64,000 nucleotides of DNA, from the NCBI GenBank assembly GCA_028522875.1, contig GCA_028522875.1_3659.1, one strand, 5' to 3'. The notes beneath the pieces were generated by a model. It worked only from the letters and a program-made list of their open reading frames with translations, did no database searches and was not told where the DNA came from. This document shows positions 31,688 through 45,042 of this stretch, piece after piece. The position numbers and the translations under genes are program-made. How positions within the stretch are numbered: position 1 is the first letter of the stretch; every line of letters begins with the position of its first letter. The stretch comes from a phage.

Positions 31688-32356
31688 ATGGCTGTAGCTT
31701 ATCCTACAATACCAATTCCAGATCTTGAAGATGCAGAAACAGTCCTGAGTGATGACTTCTTGGTTGTCAACCAGACTGATGGGACAAGAAAGGCTAAGAT
31801 TGACGATGTTGTCAACGATCTTAGCATCACTAAGATAGTCTATTTCACAGAAGGTGGTTATCTTAAGAGTAAGAAGGACTTTGCTTATGATCCAGAAACT
31901 AAGCGCTACTACACGTGGAACGGGGATTATCCTAAAATAATCCTCCCAGACTCCACTGTAGAGGGTGCTGGAGGTGTGTCTGCAAATGCCTGGTCTGTTT
32001 TTGGTGAGCTTGCTGCAACTTCTTCTGGCAGAATAGTTGATTACGGATCTATCGGCGGTCAGCTTGATATGGATCTTGAAGTTGCGGATACTTTTAAGGT
32101 TCGACTAACTTCAAATACCACAATCTCTTTTGAAAATCAAACAGAAGGTCTTGAAGGGGTGGCGAGAACTATAACCGTATGCATTACTCAGACCTCTGGC
32201 GGCAACAAAGTCTATTGGCCTGGTAATGTTAAATGGTCCTACGGAAGAGATCCTATCCTAACATTTACAGCTGGTGCAACAGATATTTTCAAGTTGGAAA
32301 CCTACGACAACGGGTTAACTTGGTACGGGGCACTGATTATCGCAGGAGCTATCTAA
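31688..32356 (+). CDS. tail fibre/spike N-terminal anchor-domain protein (222 aa)
   Basis: N-terminal about 100 aa clearly homologous to N-terminus of the 1481-aa fibre at 34991 (DDxLVVxQxDxTRxxKIxDVV...EGGxL...DFAY); AGGAG RBS. Confidence 0.45.
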   Translation: MAVAYPTIPIPDLEDAETVLSDDFLVVNQTDGTRKAKIDDVVNDLSITKIVYFTEGGYLKSKKDFAYDPETKRYYTWNGDYPKIILPDSTVEGAGGVSANAWSVFGELAATSSGRIVDYGSIGGQLDMDLEVADTFKVRLTSNTTISFENQTEGLEGVARTITVCITQTSGGNKVYWPGNVKWSYGRDPILTFTAGATDIFKLETYDNGLTWYGALIIAGAI

Positions 32357-32357
32357 G

Positions 32358-34955
32358 ATGCGTATTCAACATAACATTGATAACGTATTTCAGATGATTG
32401 AGGGGCACAGGAAGTGCCTCGATAACAACACAGGTATTACCAACACCCCTACACAAAATAAGCTAGTAAACCCTGATGGTCTTATAGCTGCAGGGTGGGC
32501 AGGTAATAAGATAAATAATGATTGGGCGATGCATGAGTCCCAAGCTGTGTTGATTCTGGGATACATTGAAGCATACAGGGCATCGAAAAGCGATTTCTAT
32601 CTGGATAGGGCAAAAGATGCTTGGGAAGCTTACAATAGCCATCTTCTAGGTGCATATGCAGTAGAAAGTAAAATGCAAAGATTGTCCCACTACCCTCTAT
32701 CTACAGATGGGGTTCCATCACATGGTGGGTTTAAAGATGTGGTGGTGTCTTTTACCAATGGTAGAGGAAAAATCCCAGCTGGATCTCCGACATGGGGGGA
32801 ATACCTGGACAAGGCATTCCAAGCGTATAACGGCGTGTTAGGAAGAAACACTGTAGACTCTGATGTTTACGGTGGCACAGATGATAACCCAGATTGGACA
32901 ACATCCGGATTAAGTTGGTGGGTTGAGTGGTATATAGCATGGGATGGTAATCGCTATTGGGCTAACGGTAGCATAGCTGATAGTGGTCATACGTCTGTAG
33001 AGTTTGGCACAATCCAATTACAAGACAAGGGTGTTACAGGCAACCACAAAGTGACCTATTGTGTAAGATTACCTCAAGAGCAGGGTGGATCGGTGATCCC
33101 TGCTGGATCCCCTGTAATTGTGAATCCTATAAACGTGGTTGCAGACAATCAAGCCCCAGAGTTGGATGGGGAAGAAATGTGGTGTGACGCTTGTTATCAA
33201 CTCTACACCTTGACAGGTGAGGAAAAGTATTACACCGCGTTTAAACAGTCTTACAACAAGTTGCTTAATTTCAGTGATATAAACGCTTACGACAAACTGT
33301 TTAGAAAGACCACGTTGATTAAGGCACCATTTACAGATGGTACTTGTCTTGTTGCAGGAACAGTTCCTGTCACGAGCAGAGACAGTGACGGGTATATCAA
33401 TTTTAGAATGAACGCACGCCAGCCTTGCGAAATAATTCAAAAAGGTACCACCTACAAAATAGGCAGAGATGCTGAAATTGTCATGAATTTCGGAGGGGAG
33501 GGGGTTCTGTTCCAGCCACATTTCATCCTTAATGATGGCAACAATAACAAAAAACAGTACAGGATAGGTGTCCCTTTTGGAGGTGCAGAGGTAACAGAAA
33601 TAGTTGCCAAGGTTACTGATTTCGTAGAGGTAGTTGGTAAAGACGGTAATCCGTACCTCTTACCTAAAGAGGAAAACATTGCCGTGAGCGGTGGTGCCAG
33701 TGTTAGTATGCAGTACGATACTGACATTTACAACCACTCTGACAACTTCACCCGTTGTAATATAGCAAGAGGCAAAGTAACTTTCAATTTTGGAAGAGAG
33801 ATTTCTTTAAACTCAGTAACTTATCGATCAGATGATGAGATGGTAAGGGTCAAATTTCTTGACAAAGATAGGTGGTTATGGTATGCTGATCTATATGCCA
33901 CCAATGGACAATGGATAACAGAAACTCTTACTCTAGGAGATTTCAAACTAGATCCGACACAACCTCATCACACTGAAGAAGAGATTAAACCTTTCTTTGC
34001 TAATCCTAAGGGACTCACCTCTGTAGATTTCAGCCTAAGCGACAGACAGATAGGTAATGGCTTGTTTGATCTATATTGCGTCAACACACTGCCGCAATTC
34101 TATATTGCAGATAGGGATGCTTATCTAATCTGGTTTAGCGTATGGATGGCAAGCAAGACAGAATCAACCGCTAAGGTTGGTGATTGCTATGTCAGAAACT
34201 ACAAGCAAGGTGCATACAGGCACACTCCTGGTGTGTTCCCTGCCGGAAAGGTGATAGATAAGGAAAACTATATCTTAGAGGAAAGGCCAAATTGGCCCTA
34301 CCCAGGCATGCAATACCCAGCAGTCTACTGCATGGGTGCAGAAAACATAGATCGCCATAGATTGTCAAATACAATAGGCTTTCTGTATGACGCTCAAGTC
34401 TGGTATAATAATACATTTAAGACAGAGGGTCCAGTTGCCTCACGTTATGTATGGCAAAGAGGTAATGAAGGGTTGACTGGTTGGTGGGAGATGGTAGATA
34501 ACTCTAAGCTCCAGTCAAGATCTTTTGTTGCTGCGTGCCGCACAATCTATGAGCTCAAGAAACATAAAGAACCTGTTGATGAAAGATTATTCCTGTTCTG
34601 CCAGAAATGGGCATGGTTCCTCAACAGATTCCAGTCATCTCATTCAGGAAATCTACCTACAGACTTTAACACCTCTGGGGGATATTCTTATCAAGATAGA
34701 GGCGACAGGATGTGGGTGGTAGGTGAATGGCTTGCAGGTTGCTGCTGGCTAGGTCTGTGCGGGTATTCAGAGACAATACCCCAAATAGATATTGTTGTAG
34801 AGGCCTGTGTGAAGCTACTGCAAAAGCACCACTTCATTAATAGGGATAATGTTTTAAACGGCTGCTGGGCAGTTTCTGATCCGGTTGGCTATCACTCTGG
34901 CGAAATCCTTCGCGGTCTGGGCCTTTATGCTCAATACCGTGGATTGTACCTTTAA
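32358..34955 (+). CDS. large tail-associated protein with (alpha/alpha)6-barrel glycosidase-like regions; possible polysaccharide depolymerase
   Basis: 865 aa; starts 1 nt after stop of anchor-domain gene; enzyme-fold assignment from weak sequence patterns only. Confidence 0.3.
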   Translation: MRIQHNIDNVFQMIEGHRKCLDNNTGITNTPTQNKLVNPDGLIAAGWAGNKINNDWAMHESQAVLILGYIEAYRASKSDFYLDRAKDAWEAYNSHLLGAYAVESKMQRLSHYPLSTDGVPSHGGFKDVVVSFTNGRGKIPAGSPTWGEYLDKAFQAYNGVLGRNTVDSDVYGGTDDNPDWTTSGLSWWVEWYIAWDGNRYWANGSIADSGHTSVEFGTIQLQDKGVTGNHKVTYCVRLPQEQGGSVIPAGSPVIVNPINVVADNQAPELDGEEMWCDACYQLYTLTGEEKYYTAFKQSYNKLLNFSDINAYDKLFRKTTLIKAPFTDGTCLVAGTVPVTSRDSDGYINFRMNARQPCEIIQKGTTYKIGRDAEIVMNFGGEGVLFQPHFILNDGNNNKKQYRIGVPFGGAEVTEIVAKVTDFVEVVGKDGNPYLLPKEENIAVSGGASVSMQYDTDIYNHSDNFTRCNIARGKVTFNFGREISLNSVTYRSDDEMVRVKFLDKDRWLWYADLYATNGQWITETLTLGDFKLDPTQPHHTEEEIKPFFANPKGLTSVDFSLSDRQIGNGLFDLYCVNTLPQFYIADRDAYLIWFSVWMASKTESTAKVGDCYVRNYKQGAYRHTPGVFPAGKVIDKENYILEERPNWPYPGMQYPAVYCMGAENIDRHRLSNTIGFLYDAQVWYNNTFKTEGPVASRYVWQRGNEGLTGWWEMVDNSKLQSRSFVAACRTIYELKKHKEPVDERLFLFCQKWAWFLNRFQSSHSGNLPTDFNTSGGYSYQDRGDRMWVVGEWLAGCCWLGLCGYSETIPQIDIVVEACVKLLQKHHFINRDNVLNGCWAVSDPVGYHSGEILRGLGLYAQYRGLYL

Positions 34956-34990
34956 CATAGGGGGCTGTTTGCCCCCTTTCAGGAGAAAGA

Positions 34991-37900
34991 ATGGCTGATA
35001 TTAAAGTTGTCAGAATTGAATCTCTTCCTGCCACTACCGCAGTGACAGAGGATGATTACCTGGTTGTTCAACAACCAGACCTGACTCGTCGTGTAAAAAT
35101 TGGCGATGTTGTCCATGTGGATGGGACTGTTTCTCATGTAATCTCCTTTAAGGAAGGTGGTAAGTTAAACGGCCCAATGGATTTTGCCTACTTCGAAGAG
35201 GAAGACCTCTACCTGCGTTGGAAAGGCGAATTTCCGCACACCGTTCCTGCACTATCTTCACCGTACTCCGATGGTGGGATTACTGATGCTGCATGGATGG
35301 TATATACAGATCCATCATTAAGAGAGGAGCTGGAATCAACTATTGGCGCATCCATGATTATGACAGCTGAAGGTCAGTCTGTCCAGGATGTAATGGATGT
35401 TACAGTTAAGACCGCCAACGATGCTAAAGCACTTGCACAGCGGGTAGATTTTGGTACCGTGCACACTGTAGGCGATGTTATTCACCTTGTCAATTTTGTT
35501 GGCCCTGCAGTTATTGAAGAGGGAAGAACTACTAACTACCCTTCCGTAGCAGCTGGTGAAAAATTCCTGAACGGTGTGGTATCTCGTCGTGATACTACAA
35601 CTGTTGATGGTATTTTCCGTGGCGCTACCTCCGGAGCTATGTATACCATTGCAGTAACCAACGGTGTAGCAACAACAAAAAGAATAGCACTTCGTGATGA
35701 ATTTAAACGCCTAGAGGCAAACAACCCAACAAGAACCGTTATTCGTGCTGGTGATGATGTAAACACAGCCGGGTACTTGCAGCTTGATGCAACAGGTCGT
35801 TGGGGCATGTGGAACCAACAGACATCTTCATGGCAACCTCTTGCTATAGAGCAAGGTGGTACAGGTGCCAGAGATGCCGCAGGTGCACGTATTAATTTAG
35901 GAGCTTTTTATAAACAACGTGCAGCCCTTGAGGCAAATTTCAATATTAACAATTTGACTGGCAATCAGGATGGTGTATACTACCAGCCCATGACTGCCAA
36001 TGCCACCGAGGCAAATGGTTACCCAGCAGGTTCTGGTGCTGGTCACCTGATTGTTTGGCAGAACAATGCTAACGGCGGTGCAGGTTGTCGTCAGGAATAC
36101 TATCCATTCTCTAACGTAGATGTTTGGTATTTGAGAACCTATCAGGCCAACACAAATCAGTGGACTGCATGGCAGCCGATGGTCAGACCTCGTAACGATG
36201 ATACCTTCAGATCTCATATCGGCCTTGGTAAAAACAACTCACCAGCCTTCGGGCACCTTTACTTAGCTCAATACTCTGGAGATGTTAAATCTGCCTCAGG
36301 TATTCTCCATGGAGATAAATATAATACTGATGGTGTTCTTGAGCATGGTTATAGGATCTACTCTGAGGTAAGAAACGACAATAAGGCTTGGTTGACAATC
36401 CACCTGCACAAAGGTGCAAAAGGATCTGAAACCCATAGATATTTAGGTTTCCGCGAAGACGGCGTGCTAGACTGCCCTAAATATATGCAGGTTGGGGATC
36501 TTACTGGTCAGCTGACAAACTGGGGACTCGGAGAGTGGATCCGTAGTTCAGGAGCAGAAAGAGGCTTCTGGGGATCCAAGAAAGCCGCCAAGATGGTCAT
36601 CTGGGATGGTGGGATGGATGAATCCGGTAACGGCACTCTGGAATGGGGTGTTTATAACAACCGGAAGGCCAAGTGGGAACCTTTACCGCAAGCCGCAGGT
36701 GGTACTGGAGCTACAACTTTGGCAGAGGCTCAGAATCTGTTTAGAGTTCCTATAGCTGCAGGCGTAAAAGATTTCTTAACGCTGCCAAGAACCGCAGGGA
36801 TGGAAGATGGGAAATACTACCCGATTATAGTTAGAACAGATCCGTATTATGCTCCAACTACTGGCACCGATATTACCATAGTTACTAGGTCGTCATCTGG
36901 TGGTGACCCCATGAACTGTGCTACCTTACAGTGTCATTATAGAACTGGTGGGTGGACAGATAGAGGGGACTCTTTCTACGGAGTAGTAAATTTCTACCAG
37001 AATGAAAAAGCAATTCTTGGGATGGTTGCTCCAACAAGGGGTAAACAAGAATATGTTGCTTTCTATGCAGAGGCGCGTGCTTTCCCTGTCAGCATATACG
37101 CAAGTAGAAATGTTTTAGAGGTGTTTACCAAAGAACAAGACTACCAGGTTGGTTCTGTAACAAACAATCAGGACGGTGTTAAGTTTTGTGCTCCGTTAGA
37201 GTCAGCAGACTTAAATCTTGCGATAAAGGGTGATAATGTAACTAATACCAGACCTCTTGCGGAGTTTAAAGGAACATCAGGTTTTTACACAGGCGGTGGT
37301 ACTCAGTGGCACTACATCGGCACACCTGAACGCTATGCGGTGATGAGTAAAATGACCATGCCTAAAGTTGAGCTATGGGCAGATGGTATCGACTACCTAT
37401 GCCCTGGTAGTCAGACCACAAGGAAAGCACTGTTCTCTAATGCTGGATTCCAGGCAGCATCTGAAGGTACAGAGGACTTAATTAACAACACATTTACTTC
37501 CAAATGCGGCAAGGGTGCAGGTCTGAAAGGCCAGTCAGAGTTCAGGTCTACCCCAGAGGCTGGACAGGTAATTGTCAGAGATGTTGTTGGTTCCGCACAT
37601 AAGTTCTTTAACTTCAACAAAGACGGCACATTCTACCCTCCTGGCGGTTATGTTTGCCAGACAGGTGCGGATTGGAACAATCAGTTTGGTAACACAAACC
37701 CGTCAAAAATAATGGCTGGTAATGTTAACGGACCTGAAGGTTCCATGGTTGTAGCAGGGTTGTCGGTTGGTTTTTCTGGAAATTATGCATTCCAGATGGC
37801 TGGTCGTCTTGATCAGTTATACACCAGGTCTATTGAGGGTGGTAATCATAGAGCGTGGAACAAGGTAATCCAACACCGTGGTCAAGGCTTGGGTAATAGC

Positions 37901-39436
37901 AATCTTAATGATTACAAAGCTGATCGTGAAGGTATTTATCATCAAGAGGCAAACTCTAACGCCACAGCCGAAAGAAATTACCCGCCTGGGCAGCAGATGG
38001 CTGGTACATTGATTGTACTCAGAAACTCTGCTAACGAGGGCACGGGCTGTATTCAGATCTACAAGATGTACCTTGGTGGAACATGGGAAAGGTATTATAA
38101 TAACACTGGTAGTGGAATGGCTTGGAGTCCTTGGAAGAGAACAAGCTTCCCGGAAAGCACAACCGCCCCAGTTATGCCTGATCTTTGGTTACCTTTGACC
38201 TCCAACTTAAAACCTGCACTTGGCGAGGGTGAGATGGTATTCTCCAGACCATCTACAGCAACATACTTTTCTAAACGTGGTGTGATGGTTACTGCCCAGA
38301 ACGATCAGCCTAGGTTTGAAAGAGATGGTCTGCTTATCGAAGGGCAAAGGACAAACCTGATGCTTAACAGTGAAGACCCGAGTAAATGGGGAGCCAGTCA
38401 ACAGATTACTGTTGGTGGTACTGTAACAAACACTAACGGCACAAAAGGTGCAAGATTTACAGTAAACACTGCATCCGGTGTGGAAACAACAGCGTTAAAC
38501 CTTGCTACAGTTCCAGCCACCAGAGGTGCCGATGTAACAGGTGCTGAGAAATTCTGTACTGGGTCTATTATTGCAAGGGGAGGTAAAGCGAACCAGAGAT
38601 TACGTGTAAGATTCGACATGTATGACGGATCCACCACAGTATTCCAAGGTGACGCTTATGTTAACCTGTCAACACTTGAAGTTAAAACAACAGGTGGTGC
38701 AGCTGGGGGAATTAAAGTAAAAGCTGAGAGATGGCAAACAGCTGGACCTGCTTGGGTAAGGATTGCCGCTACGTTTGAGGCAGTGGCCTCTGACAAGAAT
38801 ATCGGGTGCCAGTTCCAGATTTCTCCACCTGAAGGTGCTCAGCATGTTGTAGGAGATTGGGTTGATGTTGCAATACCTCAATTTGAGCTAGGTTCTTGCG
38901 AGTCCTCGTTTATTCCCACAGGGTCTTCACCTGTAACTAGAGCGGCAGATCTTTGCAAATTTCCGATGACTGATAACTTAGCACCTAGACCGTTCACTAT
39001 TGCCGCTACTGTGGATGCTAACTGGAGAGGTTGGGGAAAAGCTCCTAACGCAGCCCCTAGGGTTATAGACACAGAAGGACACCAGTCGGGCGCACCTTTT
39101 ATCCTCGGGTTTGGTTCTGCAACAAATATTGCAGAGGATGGGTATCCATATTGTGATATAGGAGGATCTAACCGTAGGGTGTATGAGATGTGTAAGGTAC
39201 GTAAGTTAAGAATGGGGTTCAGAATAAAAGATGATGGTAAAACATGTTCTTTTGCTAATGGATTGATTAGCTCTGAAACGCAATCTTCTTGGGAGTTTCT
39301 TGCAGGAGGGGCTTTTATCAGGATAGGTGGTCAAACAGCATCTGGTGAAAGACACCTGTTCGGGCACATTAAGGATATCAAGCTTTGGAACTCGTCTTTG
39401 ACCGATACGCAACTTATGATGGAGAATATTGAATAA
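34991..39436 (+). CDS. long tail fibre protein (1481 aa)
   Basis: Size; N-terminal anchor domain shared with 31688 ORF; Gly/Thr/Asn-rich beta-rich composition; GGAGAAAG RBS. Confidence 0.55.
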   Translation: MADIKVVRIESLPATTAVTEDDYLVVQQPDLTRRVKIGDVVHVDGTVSHVISFKEGGKLNGPMDFAYFEEEDLYLRWKGEFPHTVPALSSPYSDGGITDAAWMVYTDPSLREELESTIGASMIMTAEGQSVQDVMDVTVKTANDAKALAQRVDFGTVHTVGDVIHLVNFVGPAVIEEGRTTNYPSVAAGEKFLNGVVSRRDTTTVDGIFRGATSGAMYTIAVTNGVATTKRIALRDEFKRLEANNPTRTVIRAGDDVNTAGYLQLDATGRWGMWNQQTSSWQPLAIEQGGTGARDAAGARINLGAFYKQRAALEANFNINNLTGNQDGVYYQPMTANATEANGYPAGSGAGHLIVWQNNANGGAGCRQEYYPFSNVDVWYLRTYQANTNQWTAWQPMVRPRNDDTFRSHIGLGKNNSPAFGHLYLAQYSGDVKSASGILHGDKYNTDGVLEHGYRIYSEVRNDNKAWLTIHLHKGAKGSETHRYLGFREDGVLDCPKYMQVGDLTGQLTNWGLGEWIRSSGAERGFWGSKKAAKMVIWDGGMDESGNGTLEWGVYNNRKAKWEPLPQAAGGTGATTLAEAQNLFRVPIAAGVKDFLTLPRTAGMEDGKYYPIIVRTDPYYAPTTGTDITIVTRSSSGGDPMNCATLQCHYRTGGWTDRGDSFYGVVNFYQNEKAILGMVAPTRGKQEYVAFYAEARAFPVSIYASRNVLEVFTKEQDYQVGSVTNNQDGVKFCAPLESADLNLAIKGDNVTNTRPLAEFKGTSGFYTGGGTQWHYIGTPERYAVMSKMTMPKVELWADGIDYLCPGSQTTRKALFSNAGFQAASEGTEDLINNTFTSKCGKGAGLKGQSEFRSTPEAGQVIVRDVVGSAHKFFNFNKDGTFYPPGGYVCQTGADWNNQFGNTNPSKIMAGNVNGPEGSMVVAGLSVGFSGNYAFQMAGRLDQLYTRSIEGGNHRAWNKVIQHRGQGLGNSNLNDYKADREGIYHQEANSNATAERNYPPGQQMAGTLIVLRNSANEGTGCIQIYKMYLGGTWERYYNNTGSGMAWSPWKRTSFPESTTAPVMPDLWLPLTSNLKPALGEGEMVFSRPSTATYFSKRGVMVTAQNDQPRFERDGLLIEGQRTNLMLNSEDPSKWGASQQITVGGTVTNTNGTKGARFTVNTASGVETTALNLATVPATRGADVTGAEKFCTGSIIARGGKANQRLRVRFDMYDGSTTVFQGDAYVNLSTLEVKTTGGAAGGIKVKAERWQTAGPAWVRIAATFEAVASDKNIGCQFQISPPEGAQHVVGDWVDVAIPQFELGSCESSFIPTGSSPVTRAADLCKFPMTDNLAPRPFTIAATVDANWRGWGKAPNAAPRVIDTEGHQSGAPFILGFGSATNIAEDGYPYCDIGGSNRRVYEMCKVRKLRMGFRIKDDGKTCSFANGLISSETQSSWEFLAGGAFIRIGGQTASGERHLFGHIKDIKLWNSSLTDTQLMMENIE

Positions 39437-39768
39437 TGAAAGAGCTTACGCTGGGCTTTAAGGGAAGAAGTGAGTTTGAAGATCTCATGGAGGAGATCGG
39501 GTTTGCCACTGATGAGGATTTGCAACAAAAGGTCTTTGTAGAGGTTGTTGGTTTTATTTATAAAGAGACCGATCAAACTTATGAGGAAGAAGATGAGTTT
39601 GGTAACGCAGTATCATATCCTGTCGTTGTTCGTAGTGATATGTTCTATGTAGACCTTCTTATCCTGGACCAATCTGCCGTCGATGTTGTGACCAAATGGG
39701 GTACAGTTATCGAAGATCCTGGAAGACCTAATAGGTTCTCAACCCCCGCAGTAACACTGGAGGAATAA
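39436..39768 (+). CDS. small acidic protein, possible fibre assembly factor (110 aa)
   Basis: Start overlaps stop of fibre gene (ATGA); acidic; followed by terminator. Confidence 0.3.
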   Translation: MKELTLGFKGRSEFEDLMEEIGFATDEDLQQKVFVEVVGFIYKETDQTYEEEDEFGNAVSYPVVVRSDMFYVDLLILDQSAVDVVTKWGTVIEDPGRPNRFSTPAVTLEE

Positions 39769-39778
39769 ATAATAACCT

Positions 39779-39806
39779 AACCCCCGCATAGCGGGGGTTT
39801 TTTGTT
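39779..39806 (+). terminator. intrinsic terminator
   Basis: ACCCCCGC-ATA-GCGGGGGT followed by TTTTTGTTT. Confidence 0.7.
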
Positions 39807-39810
39807 TATA

Positions 39811-39839
39811 TTGCGTATTACCTTAAAATTTGATAAAAT
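39811..39839 (+). promoter_or_regulatory. promoter TTGCGT-N17-TAAAAT with TGa extended -10
   Basis: -35 TTGCGT 39811-39816, -10 TAAAAT 39834-39839 preceded by TGA; immediately after terminator. Confidence 0.45.
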
Positions 39840-39870
39840 AGTGAAAAGAATTATTAAACTGGGGGTTAAA

Positions 39871-40461
39871 ATGTTTATATGGGAAAGGCCACGATATCTC
39901 CCTGATATAAGGCTTGAACTTCTTGCAGATATAGTTAGGTTCAAAAGTCCATTCGGAGGAAAGGTACAGGAAGTTGTTTATGCAACACCTAACTGGAAAG
40001 GAACCCTTACTGTTGCCAATATCAGCGCCTCTCAGCTTATTGAGCTTAGAAATTTTATAGATAGTGTATATAAAGATGGGAACATATTCCTCATAAAAAC
40101 ATATGGTCACTCTGTAACAGCCAAAGAACCTATTGCTCTTGGACCAACAGGTAACGATGATTATTTGAAAACAGTTGGTTGGGAACCCAATACAGATATA
40201 GCTAGAGCTGGGGATAAAATATCTGTCAATGATGAGTTAAAGGTTGTAACATCTAATGTAAGAAGTGATGGCGTTGGTGCTGCGGTGATTAATATTCAAC
40301 CTAGGTTGAGAAACCCGATTAAATCAGGAGATACAATGAAGATCCTTACAGAGTCTCCTAAAGGAAGATTCCATATCAGGGATATTTACAAGATAAAGCA
40401 AAAAGTTGATCAGATGGTCACAGGGGACAACATAATCATCAATTTCTTTGAGGATTTTTAA
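39871..40461 (+). CDS. putative baseplate/tail tip protein (196 aa)
   Basis: ATG 39871 behind GGGGG; track TTG start 39802 lies in terminator. Confidence 0.35.
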   Translation: MFIWERPRYLPDIRLELLADIVRFKSPFGGKVQEVVYATPNWKGTLTVANISASQLIELRNFIDSVYKDGNIFLIKTYGHSVTAKEPIALGPTGNDDYLKTVGWEPNTDIARAGDKISVNDELKVVTSNVRSDGVGAAVINIQPRLRNPIKSGDTMKILTESPKGRFHIRDIYKIKQKVDQMVTGDNIIINFFEDF

Positions 40462-40462
40462 T

Positions 40463-41014
40463 ATGATTAGAGCACCATTTGATAACTTATTTTTAGAAAA
40501 ACTTGAGCAGGATCGTGTTGAGGTTATTATAGCAGCAAAACTAGAGCTGTCAACAGGGACTGTAAGATTGTGCTCAGGCACTGGCACAGTAATGATTGCT
40601 GGTCAATTGTTTGTTGGGATAGGTGGATCTGCAACAATAAGCGCTGTTACAGAAAAGGATGCTACAAACTTCGGATCCGTAGTAGCAACACTTAACGGAT
40701 TTGACCCCAAATTTGTTGGGGATTTGCTAAAAACAGAATATGCAGGATGCCGGGCCACATTGTATATAACAGCAATGGAAAATGGTCTACCTGTGACTAC
40801 AAATGGGCTGTTTGATGGCGTTATTACCGACATGGCGATCCACACAGGTGAAAATAGTGCACTATCTATCTCCATATCTTCTATCTTCAACAGTTGGCTA
40901 AAAGGTTTCCCCGCAAGATACACAGAGGAAAGCCACAGATCCAACAATGATAACGATAGATTTTTTAAATACGTTGACCAGGTTGCTAGTCGTCCAATTA
41001 TCTGGGAGGTTTAA
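40463..41014 (+). CDS. putative tail tip assembly protein (184 aa)
   Basis: ATG 40463 behind GAGGA RBS. Confidence 0.35.
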   Translation: MIRAPFDNLFLEKLEQDRVEVIIAAKLELSTGTVRLCSGTGTVMIAGQLFVGIGGSATISAVTEKDATNFGSVVATLNGFDPKFVGDLLKTEYAGCRATLYITAMENGLPVTTNGLFDGVITDMAIHTGENSALSISISSIFNSWLKGFPARYTEESHRSNNDNDRFFKYVDQVASRPIIWEV

Positions 41015-41440
41015 ATGAAGGCAAAACCACGGTGTGTGGATTGGCAAACCAAACTTTTAGAAGTTATTAACGAAGAGTCTGATAAGGTATTTGAGTGGGG
41101 AATTAGCGATTGCTGCACTTTTGCAGCTAAGTGTATTGATGCACAGTACGGTACAAACTTTATCATGGAGTTTGAGGGAGAATATAAGACAGAAATTGAA
41201 AGCAGGAGATTGTGCATTAGGAAATTTGGGACAACTTACTTGCCATCAATTTTTGATAATTTTTTGGAAAGAAGGGATTCAAAAAAGCAGGTTCAGAGGG
41301 GAGATGTTGTAATATTTACTGGTAAAAATGGACCTACAGCCGGAATTTGGTGGGGAGGAATGGTGGTATCTAAAGGTAAGAAAGGCCTTGTATGGATAGA
41401 CTTTTCCGATATTGAAGTTTTAGATGTTTGGGGGTTATAA
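41015..41440 (+). CDS. small tail protein with Cys-containing motif (141 aa)
   Basis: GGGAGG RBS; WGISDCCTFAAKCI segment; position before large fibre-like gene. Confidence 0.3.
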   Translation: MKAKPRCVDWQTKLLEVINEESDKVFEWGISDCCTFAAKCIDAQYGTNFIMEFEGEYKTEIESRRLCIRKFGTTYLPSIFDNFLERRDSKKQVQRGDVVIFTGKNGPTAGIWWGGMVVSKGKKGLVWIDFSDIEVLDVWGL

Positions 41441-41442
41441 TA

Positions 41443-44400
41443 ATGCCTATTGCGTTGGTGGACTCCATCGTATCCTCTGCAAGGTCTTCAAGTTACGACT
41501 GGAATGCTTCAAAAGCTGCTCTTGCTGACAGTTTAAACACGGTGACAACAAGAACGCTTGATAAGATTTTTGAAGGTAACAGAGCTTACCGTGGTCAACA
41601 AGAAAGAAAGCAACTATTAAGATCATCTGCCGCCCCTTGCACTGTGGTGTACGGAGAAACAAGATCCTCCGGTCTGCTATCTTTTGTTGAGCAAGATAGC
41701 AGCAAAACACTGCATACAGCAATTGTTCTTGCAAGTCATCCGTTGGAAAGTGTAACAGATATTCTTATTGATGGCAATCCAATCTCTAAGTACGGAGATC
41801 TTGTAAGCTATGAGATTCACAATGACCCTAAGGTAGCAGATCAGTACATGAGGCAGCATTGCCCGTCTTGGTCTGTAGACATGATAGGCAGAGGACTGTG
41901 CTGGATCAGGGTTAGTTTTAAATTTGACCCAAACAAATTTCCATTCGGCCTTCCTAATGTTACAGTTCTTAAAAAGGGTAAAAAGGTTTACGATCCTCGA
42001 ACAGGGAAAAATGTATACTCAAACAACGCAGCTTTGATTATCCTTGACTATCTGAGAGTTTACCTTAAATGCCCTGATAGTACTATAAACTGGGAATCGT
42101 TTAAAGAGGCCGCAAATATCTGTGACGAGATGGTGCAGAATGCTGACGGGACCAGCGAAAGAAGGTACACCATAAACGGAGAGTTTGACATGGATGAACC
42201 CCCAGCAAACATAATGACAGAAATGCTGAAAGCTTGCGGTGGTGATCTTTGTTATGTTGCTGGTAAGTACGGCCTTTTAGTTGGTGCATATTATGGACCT
42301 GCAAGATACAGGCTTGGAGAAGAATGCGTTTCAGGTGAGGTTAAGATATACCCTGAAGCGTCTTTCGATAAAAGATCTAATACAATCACGGGTAGATTCA
42401 TAAGCCCTGCAAAAGGGTATTCTGAGACAGACTTTCCTTCTGTTTTTGTCCCAGAGTGGGTGGAAAAGGACAAAGAGAGAAAAGTAGTAGATATCGATTA
42501 CAGGTTCGTAACAAGTCCGTATCAGGCCCAAAGAATTTCTGCAATCTTCTTAAGACGTGCCAGAGCTGGTAGGATTATCGAAGTTACGTGCAATATGAGA
42601 GGGTTCAAGTTTAAACCTGGTCATTATGTAACCATAGATCTGCCAAGTATTGGTGTTGTTGGTCAAGAGATGAGGGTGCTTGAGTGGGAATTTACAAAGA
42701 AAGGTGGCGTTAAGGTAAAACTACGCCAAGATGCTAAGGAGTGGAATGACGCAACAGGTCAACTCCCAGATTCTGGTGACATAGATATTCCGGTCTCTCC
42801 GTCAGGTGTTGCACAACCTCAAAATTTTAGATACTCTGTACTACAGGCTGGAGAGCTAACTCACGGCGTTTTAGCTTGGGACAACGTTGGTGCTTACGCT
42901 TATAACATTGTTCAGGTTAAGAAGAATGGTGAAATAGTCTGGACAGCACAGACTGTCGAGCAGTTTGTGAGGGTTGAGGGTCTTACCCAGGGGTCATACA
43001 CAGCCACGGTGGTAGCAACATCGTACAAAGGTGGGGTTTCTCCTGAAGCTTATTGCGAGTTCAATATTCAGGCACCAGAACCACCTGCATCTGTAGAGGT
43101 TAAGCAGGGGTATTTTGCAATCACACTTATACCTCACAGCAGAGACCTGGCGAGTGTTAGTACTCAGTACGATTTCTGGACTTCAGGCACAACACGGCTT
43201 GCAAGTACAGCCAACAATATTGTTGAGACACAAGCAACTCGAATGGGTATAGGATCCACTTGGACCTCGGAGGGTTTGCAAAACGATAAAACCTATTACT
43301 GGTATATCAGGACAACAAATGCTTTTGGTTCATCTGCTTTTGTGGAGTGTGCAGCCCACTGTTACACATCCATAGAAGATCTTATGCCACAGATCGATGC
43401 TGAGTTCAAAAAGACAGAGACTTACAAAGAGCTTACCGCCAATCTCGATAATGCAGTCAAGGAAATGGATAAAAATGTTGGTGCAGTCAATGACCGTGTT
43501 ACTAGCATTTTTGAAGAGCTTGGTGATACAATAGAGGGTGTTGTCAGAGAGACGACAGAAAAATTTACAGGGGTTAATGGAGAAATTTCTGCCCTTAACA
43601 GTAAGCTGGTAGCAGCTCAGCAATCCTTTGACGATAAACTTGCAGCAGAGTCTGGTAGGCTTGGGTCACTAATCGAGACAACAAATAGATCAACCGTTGA
43701 TCTTGTTAATCGTAAAACTCAAGCATTGAGTGAGCAAATAACTGCAACTCAAGGTACTCTGCGGGAAGAGTTGAAGAACACTGAGAGCAAACTTAACTCC
43801 TCTATTCAAGAAACCAACAAGGCAACAACCGATCTGCTAAATAAGACTACGGAAGCTATTAAGCAGGATCTGGTGGCGGCTACAGGGAAGATTACCAAGC
43901 TGGAAGATGATGTGCAGAAAGAGGTTGCCAATCTGCAAGCATCTATTCAAGAAACTAATAGTACAACAGTTGATCTTGTTAATAATACAGCCACAGCGAT
44001 CCGTCAAGAACTTACCTCTGCAAAACAAGAAATTGTTGACGAAATGGGTAATATTGATGAGCTTAGGGCTACAGTATCTAATACCTCTAAAGCTGTAACA
44101 ACACTTGAGGGTAAAATAGATGCTCAGTGGGGAGCTAAGATTCAGGTTGACAGTCATGGTAATAAATATGTTGCAGGTATCCAGCTGGGCATGGAGGGGT
44201 CTGGGGGACAAGTTCAATCATACTTCATGGTTAGTGCAAACAACTTTGCGGTATACAACCCCGGAAACGGAACAGCAACCCTTGCTTTCGCAATCAAGAA
44301 CAACCAAGCGTTCTTGAAAGACGCTTTTATAGAGAATGGCACGATCTCCTCTGCCAAGATTGCACAAGAAATTTCGTCAAACAACTACGATGGCAACGGG

Positions 44401-45042
44401 TACCATAAATACGGTTGGTATATTAACAAGAACGGGCATGCCCAATTTATGGATGTGTGGGTGAAAGGCAACATTAACGCCAGTTCTGGTAACTTCACAG
44501 GGGCAGTTAACGCCACTAGTGGTACCTTCCGTGGAGATGTTTATGCCAATAATGGTAGCTTTAGAGGCACCATAGATGCAACCGGAGGTACATTCCGTGG
44601 TCGTGTAGAAGCTTCTGTTATCCGTGCTAACCAGTTTGAAGGTGCAATTGTTGCACACAGGACTTACGGAGATTGTGCTCCAGTATATAACTCCCAGCAG
44701 AGGGTTTGCCGTTGGAGGTGGAGATACGTAGATAACGTTTCAGGTCAAGGTAAGAACGTAACATTCTTCTTTAAACTGAACGGTACTCGTGCCAACTCCC
44801 AACTAAATGCGTGGATAGCTGGTCATCAACTCCTTGCTGGCAAGAAGTACGGAAACGACAATGATGGCATGTGTGCAGTTGGGATAACAGGTCTAGGTGA
44901 ACAGACTATAGACATTATTATTGAAATCTACACCCCGTGGTCAACGTCAAACGTGACAGGTATTACAATATCCTGTCCTACTGTGGTTGTTAGTCGTTCT
45001 AACTCCAGCTTCCAGGGACCTTGGAACGAGTCTCACGACTAA
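41443..45042 (+). CDS. large tail fibre / host-specificity-like protein (about 1199 aa) with internal repeats
   Basis: Three tandem about 42-aa repeats (IETTNRSTVDLVNRKTQALSEQI / IQETNKATTDLLNKTTEAIKQDL / IQETNSTTVDLVNNTATAIRQEL), beta-sandwich-like region, C-terminal short G-x-F-x-G repeats (SGNFTGAVNATSGTFRGDVYANNGSFRGTIDATGGTFRG). Confidence 0.5.
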   Translation: MPIALVDSIVSSARSSSYDWNASKAALADSLNTVTTRTLDKIFEGNRAYRGQQERKQLLRSSAAPCTVVYGETRSSGLLSFVEQDSSKTLHTAIVLASHPLESVTDILIDGNPISKYGDLVSYEIHNDPKVADQYMRQHCPSWSVDMIGRGLCWIRVSFKFDPNKFPFGLPNVTVLKKGKKVYDPRTGKNVYSNNAALIILDYLRVYLKCPDSTINWESFKEAANICDEMVQNADGTSERRYTINGEFDMDEPPANIMTEMLKACGGDLCYVAGKYGLLVGAYYGPARYRLGEECVSGEVKIYPEASFDKRSNTITGRFISPAKGYSETDFPSVFVPEWVEKDKERKVVDIDYRFVTSPYQAQRISAIFLRRARAGRIIEVTCNMRGFKFKPGHYVTIDLPSIGVVGQEMRVLEWEFTKKGGVKVKLRQDAKEWNDATGQLPDSGDIDIPVSPSGVAQPQNFRYSVLQAGELTHGVLAWDNVGAYAYNIVQVKKNGEIVWTAQTVEQFVRVEGLTQGSYTATVVATSYKGGVSPEAYCEFNIQAPEPPASVEVKQGYFAITLIPHSRDLASVSTQYDFWTSGTTRLASTANNIVETQATRMGIGSTWTSEGLQNDKTYYWYIRTTNAFGSSAFVECAAHCYTSIEDLMPQIDAEFKKTETYKELTANLDNAVKEMDKNVGAVNDRVTSIFEELGDTIEGVVRETTEKFTGVNGEISALNSKLVAAQQSFDDKLAAESGRLGSLIETTNRSTVDLVNRKTQALSEQITATQGTLREELKNTESKLNSSIQETNKATTDLLNKTTEAIKQDLVAATGKITKLEDDVQKEVANLQASIQETNSTTVDLVNNTATAIRQELTSAKQEIVDEMGNIDELRATVSNTSKAVTTLEGKIDAQWGAKIQVDSHGNKYVAGIQLGMEGSGGQVQSYFMVSANNFAVYNPGNGTATLAFAIKNNQAFLKDAFIENGTISSAKIAQEISSNNYDGNGYHKYGWYINKNGHAQFMDVWVKGNINASSGNFTGAVNATSGTFRGDVYANNGSFRGTIDATGGTFRGRVEASVIRANQFEGAIVAHRTYGDCAPVYNSQQRVCRWRWRYVDNVSGQGKNVTFFFKLNGTRANSQLNAWIAGHQLLAGKKYGNDNDGMCAVGITGLGEQTIDIIIEIYTPWSTSNVTGITISCPTVVVSRSNSSFQGPWNESHD

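What the first reader, a model, noticed from the sequence alone, without database searches (positions are those of the whole stretch)
31688..39436. Shared N-terminal anchor domain on a 222-aa ORF and on the 1481-aa fibre; the short ORF is immediately followed by an 865-aa enzyme-like protein
ORF 31688 and ORF 34991 share a clearly homologous N-terminal roughly 100 aa (DDxLVVxQxDxTRxxKIxDVV…EGGxL…DFAY). The short ORF ends 1 nt before the start of an 865-aa ORF whose sequence suggests (alpha/alpha)6-barrel glycosidase-like regions. This looks like a modular, possibly split, tailspike in which anchor and depolymerase are separate polypeptides, pointing to capsule or LPS degradation.
Basis: partly seen in the sequence, partly recalled or inferred. 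Interest (0 to 1): 0.5.

Follow-up and report, generated by a model that had tools for sequence, protein, structure and literature searches.

The report
Adapter plus sugar-enzyme-like phage tail module
In this rV5-like E. coli phage, a small tail protein shares its attachment end with the long tail fibre, and its other end appears to be a dock for the next gene's product, a glycosidase-fold protein with no anchor of its own; the same gene pair recurs in many unrelated phages and may explain an unassigned tail fibre in phi92-type phages.

Summary

The main new result is comparative. The gene upstream of every gp42 homologue ends in the ~110-aa β-sandwich found at the gp43 C-terminus. This held in 12/12 GenBank lineages and 66/67 IMG/VR loci, with intergenic distances of −19 to +1 nt. 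The upstream proteins' N-terminal parts are unrelated, and include a T7 tail-fibre anchor in podoviruses. gp41, gp42 and gp43 were all detected by mass spectrometry in rV5.

Best reading: gp43 is an adapter that docks the anchorless toroid protein. Docking, catalysis and substrate are all inferred. The architecture is a new variant of known anchor-branch receptor-binding systems. phi92 gp140–gp141 are the homologous pair and are candidates for phi92's unassigned fibre II.

The parts
31688..32356 (+). 222-aa adapter protein (rV5 gp43; 100% identical to it)
   Evidence: ORF. Identity to rV5 gp43 is 222/222. PHROG 7760 'tail fiber protein', E=8e-120. Detected in the rV5 phage proteome (PMC3606486).
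31688..31831 (+). N-peptide of the adapter (aa 1-48), shared with the long fibre
   Evidence: The HMM of five N-peptides scores only this ORF and the 1481-aa ORF among 203 window ORFs (E=3e-26 and 6e-24). The same HMM, built without phi92 gp143, finds the N-terminus of the gp143 endosialidase at E=2e-9 among 131 ORFs.
31838..32002 (+). Tail_spike_N (CBA120 TSP1 / G7C gp63.1 head 'D2'-like) domain of the adapter, aa 51-105
   Evidence: Pfam PF18668, 41 bits against a cut-off of 25. PDB sequence hits align to residues ~103-158 of CBA120 TSP1/TSP3 and G7C gp63.1. This domain is absent from the phi92/phAPEC8-type small partner, so it is optional.
32030..32353 (+). C-terminal ~110-aa beta-sandwich 'C-domain' (motif QxxGGNKVxWPxNVKW...PxLT...D...TYDNGLTWYG); proposed dock for the 865-aa protein
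32344..32360 (+). Coupling junction: AGGAG (32344-32348), TAA stop (32354-32356), 1-nt spacer, ATG (32358-32360)
   Evidence: Sequence read. The equivalent junctions in 11 other lineages are -19 to +1 nt.
32358..34955 (+). 865-aa anchorless six-hairpin (alpha/alpha)6 toroid protein with two beta-rich insertions (aa ~100-268 and ~330-613); rV5 gp42
34960..34979 (+). GC-rich stem-loop GGGGGC-TGTTT-GCCCCC followed by TTT, between the 865-aa and 1481-aa genes
   Evidence: Sequence read. It did not meet the terminator scan's T-run criterion, so its function is unknown.
34991..39436 (+). 1481-aa long lateral fibre (rV5 gp41 allele) with the same N-terminal anchor (aa 1-105) and a swapped C-terminal receptor-binding cassette
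   Evidence: ORF. Pfam Tail_spike_N at aa 46-103. 91% identical to rV5 gp41 over aa 1-1051, with no match after that. NCBIfam GTA_spike_fiber NF048003 at aa 1115-1319, 76 bits against a cut-off of 36. PDB RcGTA head spike fibre, E=3e-8.
39436..39768 (+). 110-aa acidic ORF overlapping the fibre stop codon (TAATG); candidate fibre-cassette-specific assembly factor
   Evidence: ORF. PHROG 1361, unknown function. Present in CarlMeissner, which has the same fibre allele, and absent in rV5, which has another fibre C-terminus.
39779..39799 (+). Intrinsic terminator closing the gp43-gp42-gp41-ORF110 unit
   Evidence: 9-bp stem with 7 GC pairs followed by TTTTGTTTAT.

Best explanation
The 222-aa protein (gp43) is an adapter, presumably trimeric.

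- Its first ~105 residues (a ~47-aa N-peptide plus a TSP-head 'D2'-like domain) plug into the same kind of socket on the baseplate or fibre scaffold as the long fibre gp41. This is why the two N-termini are homologous.
- Its last ~110 residues form a small beta-sandwich. I propose this is the docking site for the product of the next, translationally coupled gene.
- That product is the 865-aa gp42, which has no anchor of its own. gp42 is built on a six-hairpin (alpha/alpha)6 toroid with two beta-rich insertions. It is the working end of this short, thick appendage, and it binds and probably cleaves or modifies a conserved cell-surface glycan.

Shown: the homologies, the folds, the invariant gene pairing across unrelated phages, and detection of all three proteins in the rV5 phage proteome.

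Inferred: the physical gp43-gp42 contact, the stoichiometry, catalysis and the substrate.
For: 1. The shared anchor is real and restricted to two ORFs in the window.
2. The pattern repeats in other lineages. In 4MG, both the small protein and the downstream colanidase-like spike carry the N-peptide plus Tail_spike_N. In phi92, gp140 and the fibre-tip endosialidase gp143 share the N-peptide (E=2e-9).
3. The gp42 family never has this anchor. All close homologues start at the same MR... N-terminus.
4. In 12/12 GenBank lineages, the gene directly upstream of a gp42 homologue ends in the C-domain (HMM E 1e-30 to 1e-50), with junctions of -19 to +1 nt. Seven of these 12 lineages supplied the sequences the HMM was built from. 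The lineages are Vequintavirus, Seunavirus, phAPEC8-like, Justusliebigvirus, Aghbyvirus and another podovirus (T7 tail-fibre N-domain, Pfam PF03906), Rosemountvirus, Seoulvirus, Asteriusvirus, Kolesnikvirus, Cronobacter Ss1 and Vibrio phages.
5. The same holds in 66/67 IMG/VR loci, which fall into 16 clusters of upstream partners of 157-563 aa with unrelated N-terminal parts. Recombination breakpoints therefore fall between anchor and C-domain, and never between C-domain and toroid gene.
6. tblastn record counts and host breakdowns for the two queries are nearly identical (536 vs 525 records).
7. Rare fused proteins carry a C-domain-like segment directly before the toroid module (P0041, i-E 7e-5). 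Others have the toroid fused to lambda gpM-like, tail-collar or gpJ-like anchors. The toroid thus behaves as portable tail cargo.
10. gp41, gp42 and gp43 were detected by mass spectrometry of rV5 (PMC3606486).
Against: - No direct evidence of a gp43-gp42 contact. Adjacent genes are co-inherited anyway, and a complex could not be predicted with the tools available.
- The N-terminal half of gp43 was not modelled (pLDDT below 50).
- The gp42 model is of medium confidence (pLDDT 71), from a 7-sequence alignment.
- No specific glycoside-hydrolase family is matched, and the six-hairpin fold also occurs in epimerases and terpene cyclases.
- The Vequintavirus clade differs from the family consensus at conserved aromatic or polar positions: N45A, W100Y, N103E, W274M, Y622H, Y651M, W715N. 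This could mean altered or lost activity.
- The very high conservation of gp42 among Vequintaviruses fits a structural role as well as it fits a conserved substrate.
- The spatial clustering of the conserved carboxylates could not be checked, because no model coordinates were available.
Confidence: 0.6

Rival explanations
1. gp42 is a non-catalytic structural or lectin-like component, for example the arm or scaffold of the lateral fibre complex. It uses the toroid only for protein or glycan binding. gp43 still docks it.
For: - At least 95% identity across ~120 Vequintavirus records.
- The Vequintavirus clade has replaced seven family-conserved residues, five of them aromatic.
- No CAZy-type family match.
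- phi92 fibre I has an unassigned L-shaped scaffold arm (PMC13450770).
Against: - The carboxylates E60, D270 and E849, plus Q680 and R721, are retained in the Vequintavirus proteins and in 89-99% of the family. A pure scaffold has no obvious need for them.
- In podoviruses such as ISAO8, the adapter plus toroid is the only fibre-like gene set, so the toroid must carry receptor recognition there.
Confidence: 0.25
2. gp43 is a self-sufficient short fibre whose C-domain is itself the receptor-binding tip. gp42 attaches to the virion elsewhere, and the adjacency only reflects a shared operon or assembly order.
For: - Small C-terminal beta-sandwich domains are common receptor-binding tips.
- The C-domain carries an Asp-box-like hairpin (TYDNGLTW), a motif often found in glycan-binding proteins (sequence; the motif itself is from general knowledge).
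- BASEL annotates gp43 as 'sialidase domain protein'.
Against: - It does not explain why the toroid gene is never found without a C-domain directly upstream (66/67 and 12/12).
- It does not explain how the anchorless toroid reaches the virion in a T7-like podovirus.
- It does not explain the fused C-domain-toroid proteins.
Confidence: 0.1
3. gp42 is an assembly chaperone for the C-domain-bearing fibre, analogous to downstream-encoded tail-fibre assembly proteins, and is not a functional virion component.
For: Its position directly downstream of a fibre gene, with translational coupling, is typical of tail-fibre chaperones (general knowledge; junctions).
Against: - At 865-1000 aa with a six-hairpin fold, it is unlike any known fibre chaperone.
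- gp42 was detected in the rV5 phage proteome.
- Relatives are fused to lambda gpM-like, collar and gpJ-like tail proteins, so they are built into tails.
Confidence: 0.05

Closest known systems
CBA120 TSP1-4 and G7C gp66/gp63.1 branched tailspike complexes
   Same: The N-terminal domain of gp43 and gp41 belongs to the same Pfam family (PF18668) as the head domains of TSP1/TSP3/gp63.1, which bind partner proteins (PMC7506556). One protein provides docking sites for another. The C-domain model weakly resembles the TSP4 N-terminal assembly region.
   Different: In those systems every partner is a trimeric beta-helix or SGNH tailspike with its own head domain. Here the docked protein has no head domain and is a six-hairpin toroid. 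The adapter has no enzymatic body at all.
Adapter or truncated-anchor systems: K1-5/K1E gp37 adapter, Klebsiella phage 2044-307w and the JD001 group (Latka et al. 2019, PMC6872550)
   Same: A short first protein consists only of a virion anchor plus a docking domain. The enzymatic receptor-binding protein is a separate polypeptide encoded nearby.
   Different: Those second RBPs are recognised by short conserved N-terminal peptides and are beta-helix depolymerases, and the docking domain is T4 gp10-like. Here the dock is a distinct ~110-aa domain that always sits at the extreme C-terminus, and it co-occurs with one particular partner family across many phage groups.
phi92 gp140 / gp141 / gp143 (Justusliebigvirus)
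   Same: Direct homologues in the same order. gp140 (157 aa) has the N-peptide plus C-domain. gp141 (958 aa) is the toroid protein; the equivalent 958-aa protein of the phAPEC8-like phage VivaForever is 35% identical to the window protein. gp143 carries the N-peptide.
   Different: phi92 gp140 lacks the Tail_spike_N domain. The fibre with the shared N-peptide is an endosialidase rather than a long fibre. The 2026 cryo-EM study neither assigns nor mentions gp141, and it leaves fibre II unidentified.
Six-hairpin (alpha/alpha)6 glycosidases and epimerases (GH8, GH48, GH76, GH88, GH105, AGE family)
   Different: Identity is only 10-13%, and no family-level sequence match exists. The barrel is interrupted by ~170-aa and ~280-aa beta-rich insertions. 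Catalytic residues are not mapped.
T2/T6-type gp37-gp38 (fibre plus downstream-encoded tip adhesin)
   Same: The working receptor-binding unit is a separate protein encoded directly downstream of the fibre gene, and it binds the fibre's distal tip (general knowledge, not tested here).
   Different: gp38 adhesins are small (~260 aa), glycine-rich, OMP-binding proteins with no homology or fold similarity to the toroid.

Membership tests
Pfam PF18668 Tail_spike_N (TSP1/gp66-type N-terminal domain) | Sequence match above the curated gathering score | tested here: met
   222-aa protein: 41.0 bits. 1481-aa protein: 40.4 bits. Cut-off is 25. The 4MG homologues also pass.
Anchor-branch / adapter receptor-binding complexes (G7C, CBA120, K1-5 type) | A protein with an N-terminal particle- or partner-binding anchor shared among co-resident fibres | tested here: met
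   The homologous N-terminus is present on exactly two window ORFs. The same pattern is seen in 4MG and phi92. That it binds the particle is inferred by homology to the TSP head domains.
Anchor-branch / adapter receptor-binding complexes (G7C, CBA120, K1-5 type) | A T4 gp10-like branching (docking) domain on the anchoring protein | tested here: inconclusive
Anchor-branch / adapter receptor-binding complexes (G7C, CBA120, K1-5 type) | Physical attachment of the second protein to the first | not testable with these tools
   Only indirect evidence is available: invariant adjacency, rare fusions and joint detection in the rV5 proteome.
Six-hairpin (alpha/alpha)6 glycosidase superfamily | Twelve-helix (alpha/alpha)6 toroid fold | tested here: met
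Six-hairpin (alpha/alpha)6 glycosidase superfamily | Catalytic carboxylate pair at the barrel mouth | tested here: inconclusive
   E60, D270 and E849 are 89-95% conserved in 76 family members and sit at helix N-termini. Their spatial proximity and their equivalence to known catalytic residues could not be checked, because no coordinates were available.
A specific CAZy family (GH8, GH76, GH88, GH105 and others) | Family-level sequence signature | tested here: not met
   No Pfam or NCBIfam hit. No PDB hit for the single sequence. The family profile reaches only E~1e-3 on a generic hairpin motif that matches several hairpins of GH76 and AGE proteins.
Classical phage tailspike depolymerase | Trimeric right-handed parallel beta-helix body behind an N-terminal head domain | tested here: not met
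   The 865-aa protein has no head domain. Its body is an alpha/alpha toroid with beta-sandwich insertions, not a beta-helix.
Sialidase (the BASEL annotation of the 222-aa protein) | Six-bladed beta-propeller with several Asp-boxes and catalytic Arg triad | tested here: not met
   Only ~110 residues, modelled as a single beta-sandwich, with one Asp-box-like hairpin (TYDNGLTW). No sialidase or BNR family was found in Pfam.

The most novel reading that the evidence does not exclude
The C-domain adapter plus six-hairpin toroid pair is a widespread, so far undescribed 'plug-and-play' receptor-binding cassette of tailed phages. A globular glycan-processing enzyme, probably monomeric, rides on the tip of a trimeric stub or fibre through a dedicated ~110-aa dock. 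In phi92/rV5-type myoviruses this pair (phi92 gp140-gp141, rV5 gp43-gp42) is the unassigned 'fibre II', which is short, thick and rigid. It would be attached next to fibre I through the same N-peptide socket that holds the endosialidase gp143 (or the long fibre gp41).
Probability: 0.3. Interest if true: 0.65.

Novelty: new variant of a known kind. Interest (0 to 1): 0.5.

Why it matters
Which genes build which lateral fibres in rV5- and phi92-type phages is an explicitly open question (BASEL 2021, PMC8594841; phi92 cryo-EM 2026, PMC13450770). These are broad-host-range therapy candidates. This analysis gives a concrete and testable assignment: gp43/gp140 as adapter, gp42/gp141 as its cargo, and one N-peptide socket shared with the main variable fibre.

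It also defines an unannotated protein family. The family has 363 clusters at 50% identity and no Pfam, NCBIfam or PDB entry. Its partner domain recurs in podoviruses, small and jumbo myoviruses and, in fused form, probably in siphovirus tail tips.

If the toroid is an active glycanase against a conserved enterobacterial glycan, it would be a new type of virion-associated enzyme. It would also offer a modular handle for engineering phage host range.

Tried and rejected
- **Programmed frameshift or readthrough fusing the 222-aa and 865-aa ORFs.** The 865-aa ORF is in the +1 frame, there is no slippery sequence at the junction, and the junction geometry differs between lineages (-19 to +1 nt). 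This looks like ordinary translational coupling, so I rejected the idea.
- **BLAST search for fused anchor-toroid proteins**. It found only the odd 293-aa P0068. An HMM was needed to detect the weak fusion in P0041.
- **Specific glycoside-hydrolase assignment.** Pfam, NCBIfam, phmmer against PDB and a family profile against PDB gave only superfamily-level signal.
- **Experimental data from a Rosemountvirus paper on 'gp38'** (PMC12946066). That protein is an unrelated 123-aa DUF protein.
- **S144 ORF17** (PMC7432712). It is described as a tail protein with an HHpred hydrolase hint that resembles neither a spike nor a fibre. It may be a family member, but I did not compare the sequence.
The BFVD search returned only unnamed phage tail proteins.
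- **Schwarzer et al. 2012**, the phi92 genome and cryo-EM paper, is not held.
- **The search for related loci with the broad alignment A5** failed for lack of conserved stretches, so I used A1 instead. This biases the IMG/VR sample towards two peptide patterns, and 40 of the 66 positive loci belong to one cluster.
- **Model coordinates** are not exposed, so I could not measure clustering of the conserved residues.
- **Multimer prediction** of gp43 with gp42 was not possible under the tool's input restrictions.
Full report
**Identity of the window.** The region is 92-96% identical at the DNA level to more than 100 rV5-like coliphages of the genus Vequintavirus. The three ORFs correspond to rV5 gp43 (222 aa, 100% identical), gp42 (865 aa, 99.1% identical) and gp41. 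The window's 1481-aa gp41 allele is 91% identical to rV5 gp41 over residues 1-1051. After that it carries a different C-terminal cassette, a GTA head-spike-fibre domain (NCBIfam NF048003, residues 1115-1319). Upstream lie the baseplate hub, central spike and a phrog_4233 baseplate protein. Downstream lie a 110-aa ORF, a strong terminator (39779-39799) and lambda-like tail-tip genes.

**Check of the observation.** Every element holds.
- The ORF coordinates are exact.
- The two N-termini align at 38% identity over 99 residues, E=3e-18.
- Both exceed the Pfam gathering score for Tail_spike_N (PF18668) at residues ~46-105. This region aligns to the 'D2' part of the head domains of CBA120 TSP1/TSP3 and G7C gp63.1 (domain limits from PMC7506556).
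- The first ~47 residues form a second shared element, the N-peptide. No other ORF in the window has either element.
- The 222-aa ORF stops at 32356 and the 865-aa ORF starts at 32358, with AGGAG 9 nt upstream.

**What the 865-aa protein is.** Pfam, NCBIfam and a PDB sequence search find nothing. PHROGs files it as 'tail protein'. An AlphaFold2 model from a seven-sequence alignment has medium confidence (pLDDT 71, pTM 0.56). It shows about twelve long helices arranged as hairpins at residues 59-95, 269-319 and 655-860, separated by beta-rich insertions at ~100-268 and ~330-613.
- A 46-sequence family profile independently reaches GH76, cellobiose 2-epimerase and a 'six-hairpin glycosidase' at E~1e-3. 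It does so only through the generic helix-hairpin motif.
No specific CAZy family can be assigned.
- Across 76 near-full-length relatives, E60, D270 and E849 (each within the first residues of a barrel helix), Q680, R721 and D502 are 89-99% conserved. This is what a conserved active or binding site would look like, but I could not test their spatial clustering.
- One caveat: the Vequintavirus proteins deviate from the family consensus at seven otherwise conserved positions, five of them aromatic.

**What the 222-aa protein is.** It has three parts: the N-peptide (1-48), the Tail_spike_N domain (51-105) and a C-terminal domain (~115-222).
- In the model only the C-domain is confident (pLDDT ~80), and it is a beta-sandwich.
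- In CBA120 that TSP4 region contains the binding sites for other tailspikes (PMC7506556).
- The BASEL label 'sialidase domain protein' probably reflects a single Asp-box-like hairpin (TYDNGLTW). A 110-residue sandwich is not a sialidase propeller.

**The decisive comparative result.** The C-domain and the toroid family travel together.
- tblastn finds the two proteins in almost the same set of phage records, 536 vs 525, with near-identical host breakdowns.
- I inspected twelve lineages: Vequintavirus, Seunavirus 4MG, phAPEC8-like VivaForever, phi92, the podoviruses ISAO8 and PhiAC505, Rosemountvirus PEA2-3, the jumbo phages EC001 and PBECO4, Kolesnikvirus M7, Cronobacter Ss1 and Vibrio K367. 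In all twelve, the gene directly upstream of the toroid homologue ends in the C-domain (HMM E 1e-30 to 1e-50; seven of the twelve lineages supplied the HMM's training sequences), and the stop/start distance is -19 to +1 nt.
- In a less hand-picked sample from IMG/VR, 66 of 67 loci with enough upstream DNA show the same arrangement. The exception is a 96-residue partial match. The upstream partners fall into 16 clusters of 157-563 aa with unrelated N-terminal parts. One cluster supplies 40 of the loci, so the number of independent lineages is nearer 16 than 66.
- The N-terminal parts are lineage-appropriate anchors. The podovirus ISAO8 has a T7 tail-fibre N-domain (Pfam PF03906). Vequintavirus and Seunavirus have the N-peptide plus Tail_spike_N. 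phi92 and phAPEC8-like phages have the N-peptide alone.
- In ISAO8 the adapter and the toroid protein are the only fibre-like genes. The toroid protein must therefore reach the tail through that adapter.
- The exhaustive profile search (363 representatives) also found a few proteins with a C-domain-like segment fused directly before the toroid module (P0041, i-E 7e-5; P0039 weaker). In others the toroid is fused to a lambda gpM-like minor tail protein, a tail-collar protein or a gpJ-like protein. The toroid thus behaves as portable tail cargo that is attached in several ways.

**The shared anchor in context.** The pattern 'small adapter and main variable fibre share an N-terminus, with the toroid gene between them' recurs. 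In 4MG the partner is a colanidase-like spike. In phi92 it is the endosialidase gp143. An N-peptide HMM built without gp143 recovers its extreme N-terminus at E=2e-9 among 131 ORFs. The 2026 cryo-EM study places gp143 at the tip of the L-shaped fibre I and reports that fibre II attaches at the base of fibre I. It describes fibre II as short, thick and rigid. It could not be assigned, because only fibre-shaped candidates were screened, and gp141 and gp142 are never mentioned (PMC13450770). BASEL likewise states that it is unclear which genes encode which fibre components (PMC8594841).

**Mechanism proposed.**
- gp43 is an adapter. Its N-terminal module occupies a socket of the same kind as the one used by the long fibre gp41. 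Its C-domain holds gp42. This step is inferred from the invariant pairing, the fusions, the podovirus case and the resemblance to assembly domains.
- gp42 is the functional head, a six-hairpin protein that binds and probably processes a surface glycan. This step is inferred from the fold and the conserved carboxylates.
- Translational coupling would deliver the two proteins in matched amounts.
- All three proteins were detected by mass spectrometry in rV5 (PMC3606486).
- gp42 and gp43 are nearly invariant among Vequintaviruses, whereas gp41 varies. The target is therefore more likely a conserved glycan than a serotype-specific capsule or O-antigen. Its identity is unknown.

**Rivals.**
- gp42 may be a non-catalytic scaffold or lectin (0.25). 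The substituted aromatics and the strong conservation favour this. The retained carboxylates and the podovirus case argue against it.
- gp43 may be an independent short fibre, with the adjacency incidental (0.1). This does not explain the invariant pairing or the fusions.
- gp42 may be a fibre chaperone (0.05). Its size, its fold, its detection in the rV5 proteome and the fusions to tail proteins all contradict this.

**Comparison with known systems and novelty.** Separate anchor or adapter proteins that carry enzymatic receptor-binding proteins are well established: K1-5 gp37, G7C gp66/gp63.1, CBA120, Klebsiella phage 2044-307w and the JD001 group (PMC6872550). Two things differ here. The cargo is a six-hairpin toroid rather than a beta-helix spike, with no head domain or recognised docking peptide. 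The dock is a dedicated C-terminal domain that co-occurs with this one cargo family across many phage groups. I found no description of this cassette in the searchable literature. The individual genes are already annotated as tail or tail-fibre proteins, and BASEL already notes 'glycosidase domains' for gp42. I therefore rate it a new variant of a known kind, with moderate interest (0.5). The most novel reading not excluded by the evidence is that this pair is the missing fibre II of phi92/rV5-type baseplates and a general plug-and-play RBP cassette. I give it a probability of about 0.3.

Noticed in passing
window 39436-39768 (and terminator 39779-39799): A 110-aa acidic ORF overlaps the stop codon of the 1481-aa fibre (TAATG) and is followed directly by a strong intrinsic terminator. 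It is present in CarlMeissner, which has the same fibre C-terminus, and absent in rV5, whose gp41 has a different C-terminal cassette. It is therefore a candidate cassette-specific fibre assembly factor.
   Followed up: partly
window 34960-34979: A GC-rich stem-loop (GGGGGC-TGTTT-GCCCCC followed by TTT) lies in the 35-nt gap between the 865-aa and 1481-aa genes. It did not pass the terminator scan. It could be a partial terminator or an RNA-stability element that sets the ratio of upstream to downstream products.
   Followed up: partly
window 39802-45042: Siphovirus-type (lambda/PY54-like) tail-tip genes are embedded in the fibre cluster of a myovirus. They include a distal tail protein, a tail protein, an NlpC/P60-like 'cell wall hydrolase' and a 1204-aa gpJ-like protein. 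The rV5 annotation says the same.
   Followed up: no
window 38333-38947 (aa 1115-1319 of the 1481-aa fibre): The fibre's C-terminal cassette is a GTA head-spike-fibre domain (NCBIfam NF048003; PDB 6tb9 RcGTA head spike). Relative to rV5 gp41 it is swapped in after residue ~1051, which is a clear recombination breakpoint.
   Followed up: partly
GenBank records MG0656xx (e.g. H3, H9-H11): About 20 records labelled 'Campylobacter phage' with host C. jejuni are 92-94% identical to this coliphage locus over 7.7 kb. The host labels look doubtful. These may be coliphage contaminants or mis-assignments.
   Followed up: no
P0068 (293 aa): This metagenomic protein has an N-terminal fragment of the toroid family (residues 12-195) followed by a C-domain (residues 190-274, HMM E=2e-20). 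That is the reverse of the usual order. It is unexplained and may be a rearranged or chimeric gene call.
   Followed up: no
P0071, P0109 and about 15 further representatives: Many distant toroid-family proteins carry an N-terminal lambda gpM-like 'Phage_min_tail' domain (PF05939), once in duplicate. This suggests that in some siphoviruses the toroid is built directly into the tail tip.
   Followed up: partly
Septuagintavirus W70 (PMC11370258, Table 2): In this Vequintavirinae genus the phrog_4233 baseplate protein is followed directly by wedge proteins. The gp43-gp37 block of the window (~13 kb) therefore looks like an accessory insertion into a conserved baseplate operon.
   Followed up: no
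L003 12230-14305 / phi92 gp142 (L009 2597-4756): In phi92 and phAPEC8-like phages, the gene after the toroid gene is an N4 gp65-like protein (Pfam NCTSP_N plus TIM-barrel_NCTSP plus Calx-beta). A 2026 preprint links this protein to binding of the N4 glycan receptor. In the window phage the equivalent gene lies elsewhere in the cluster.
   Followed up: no
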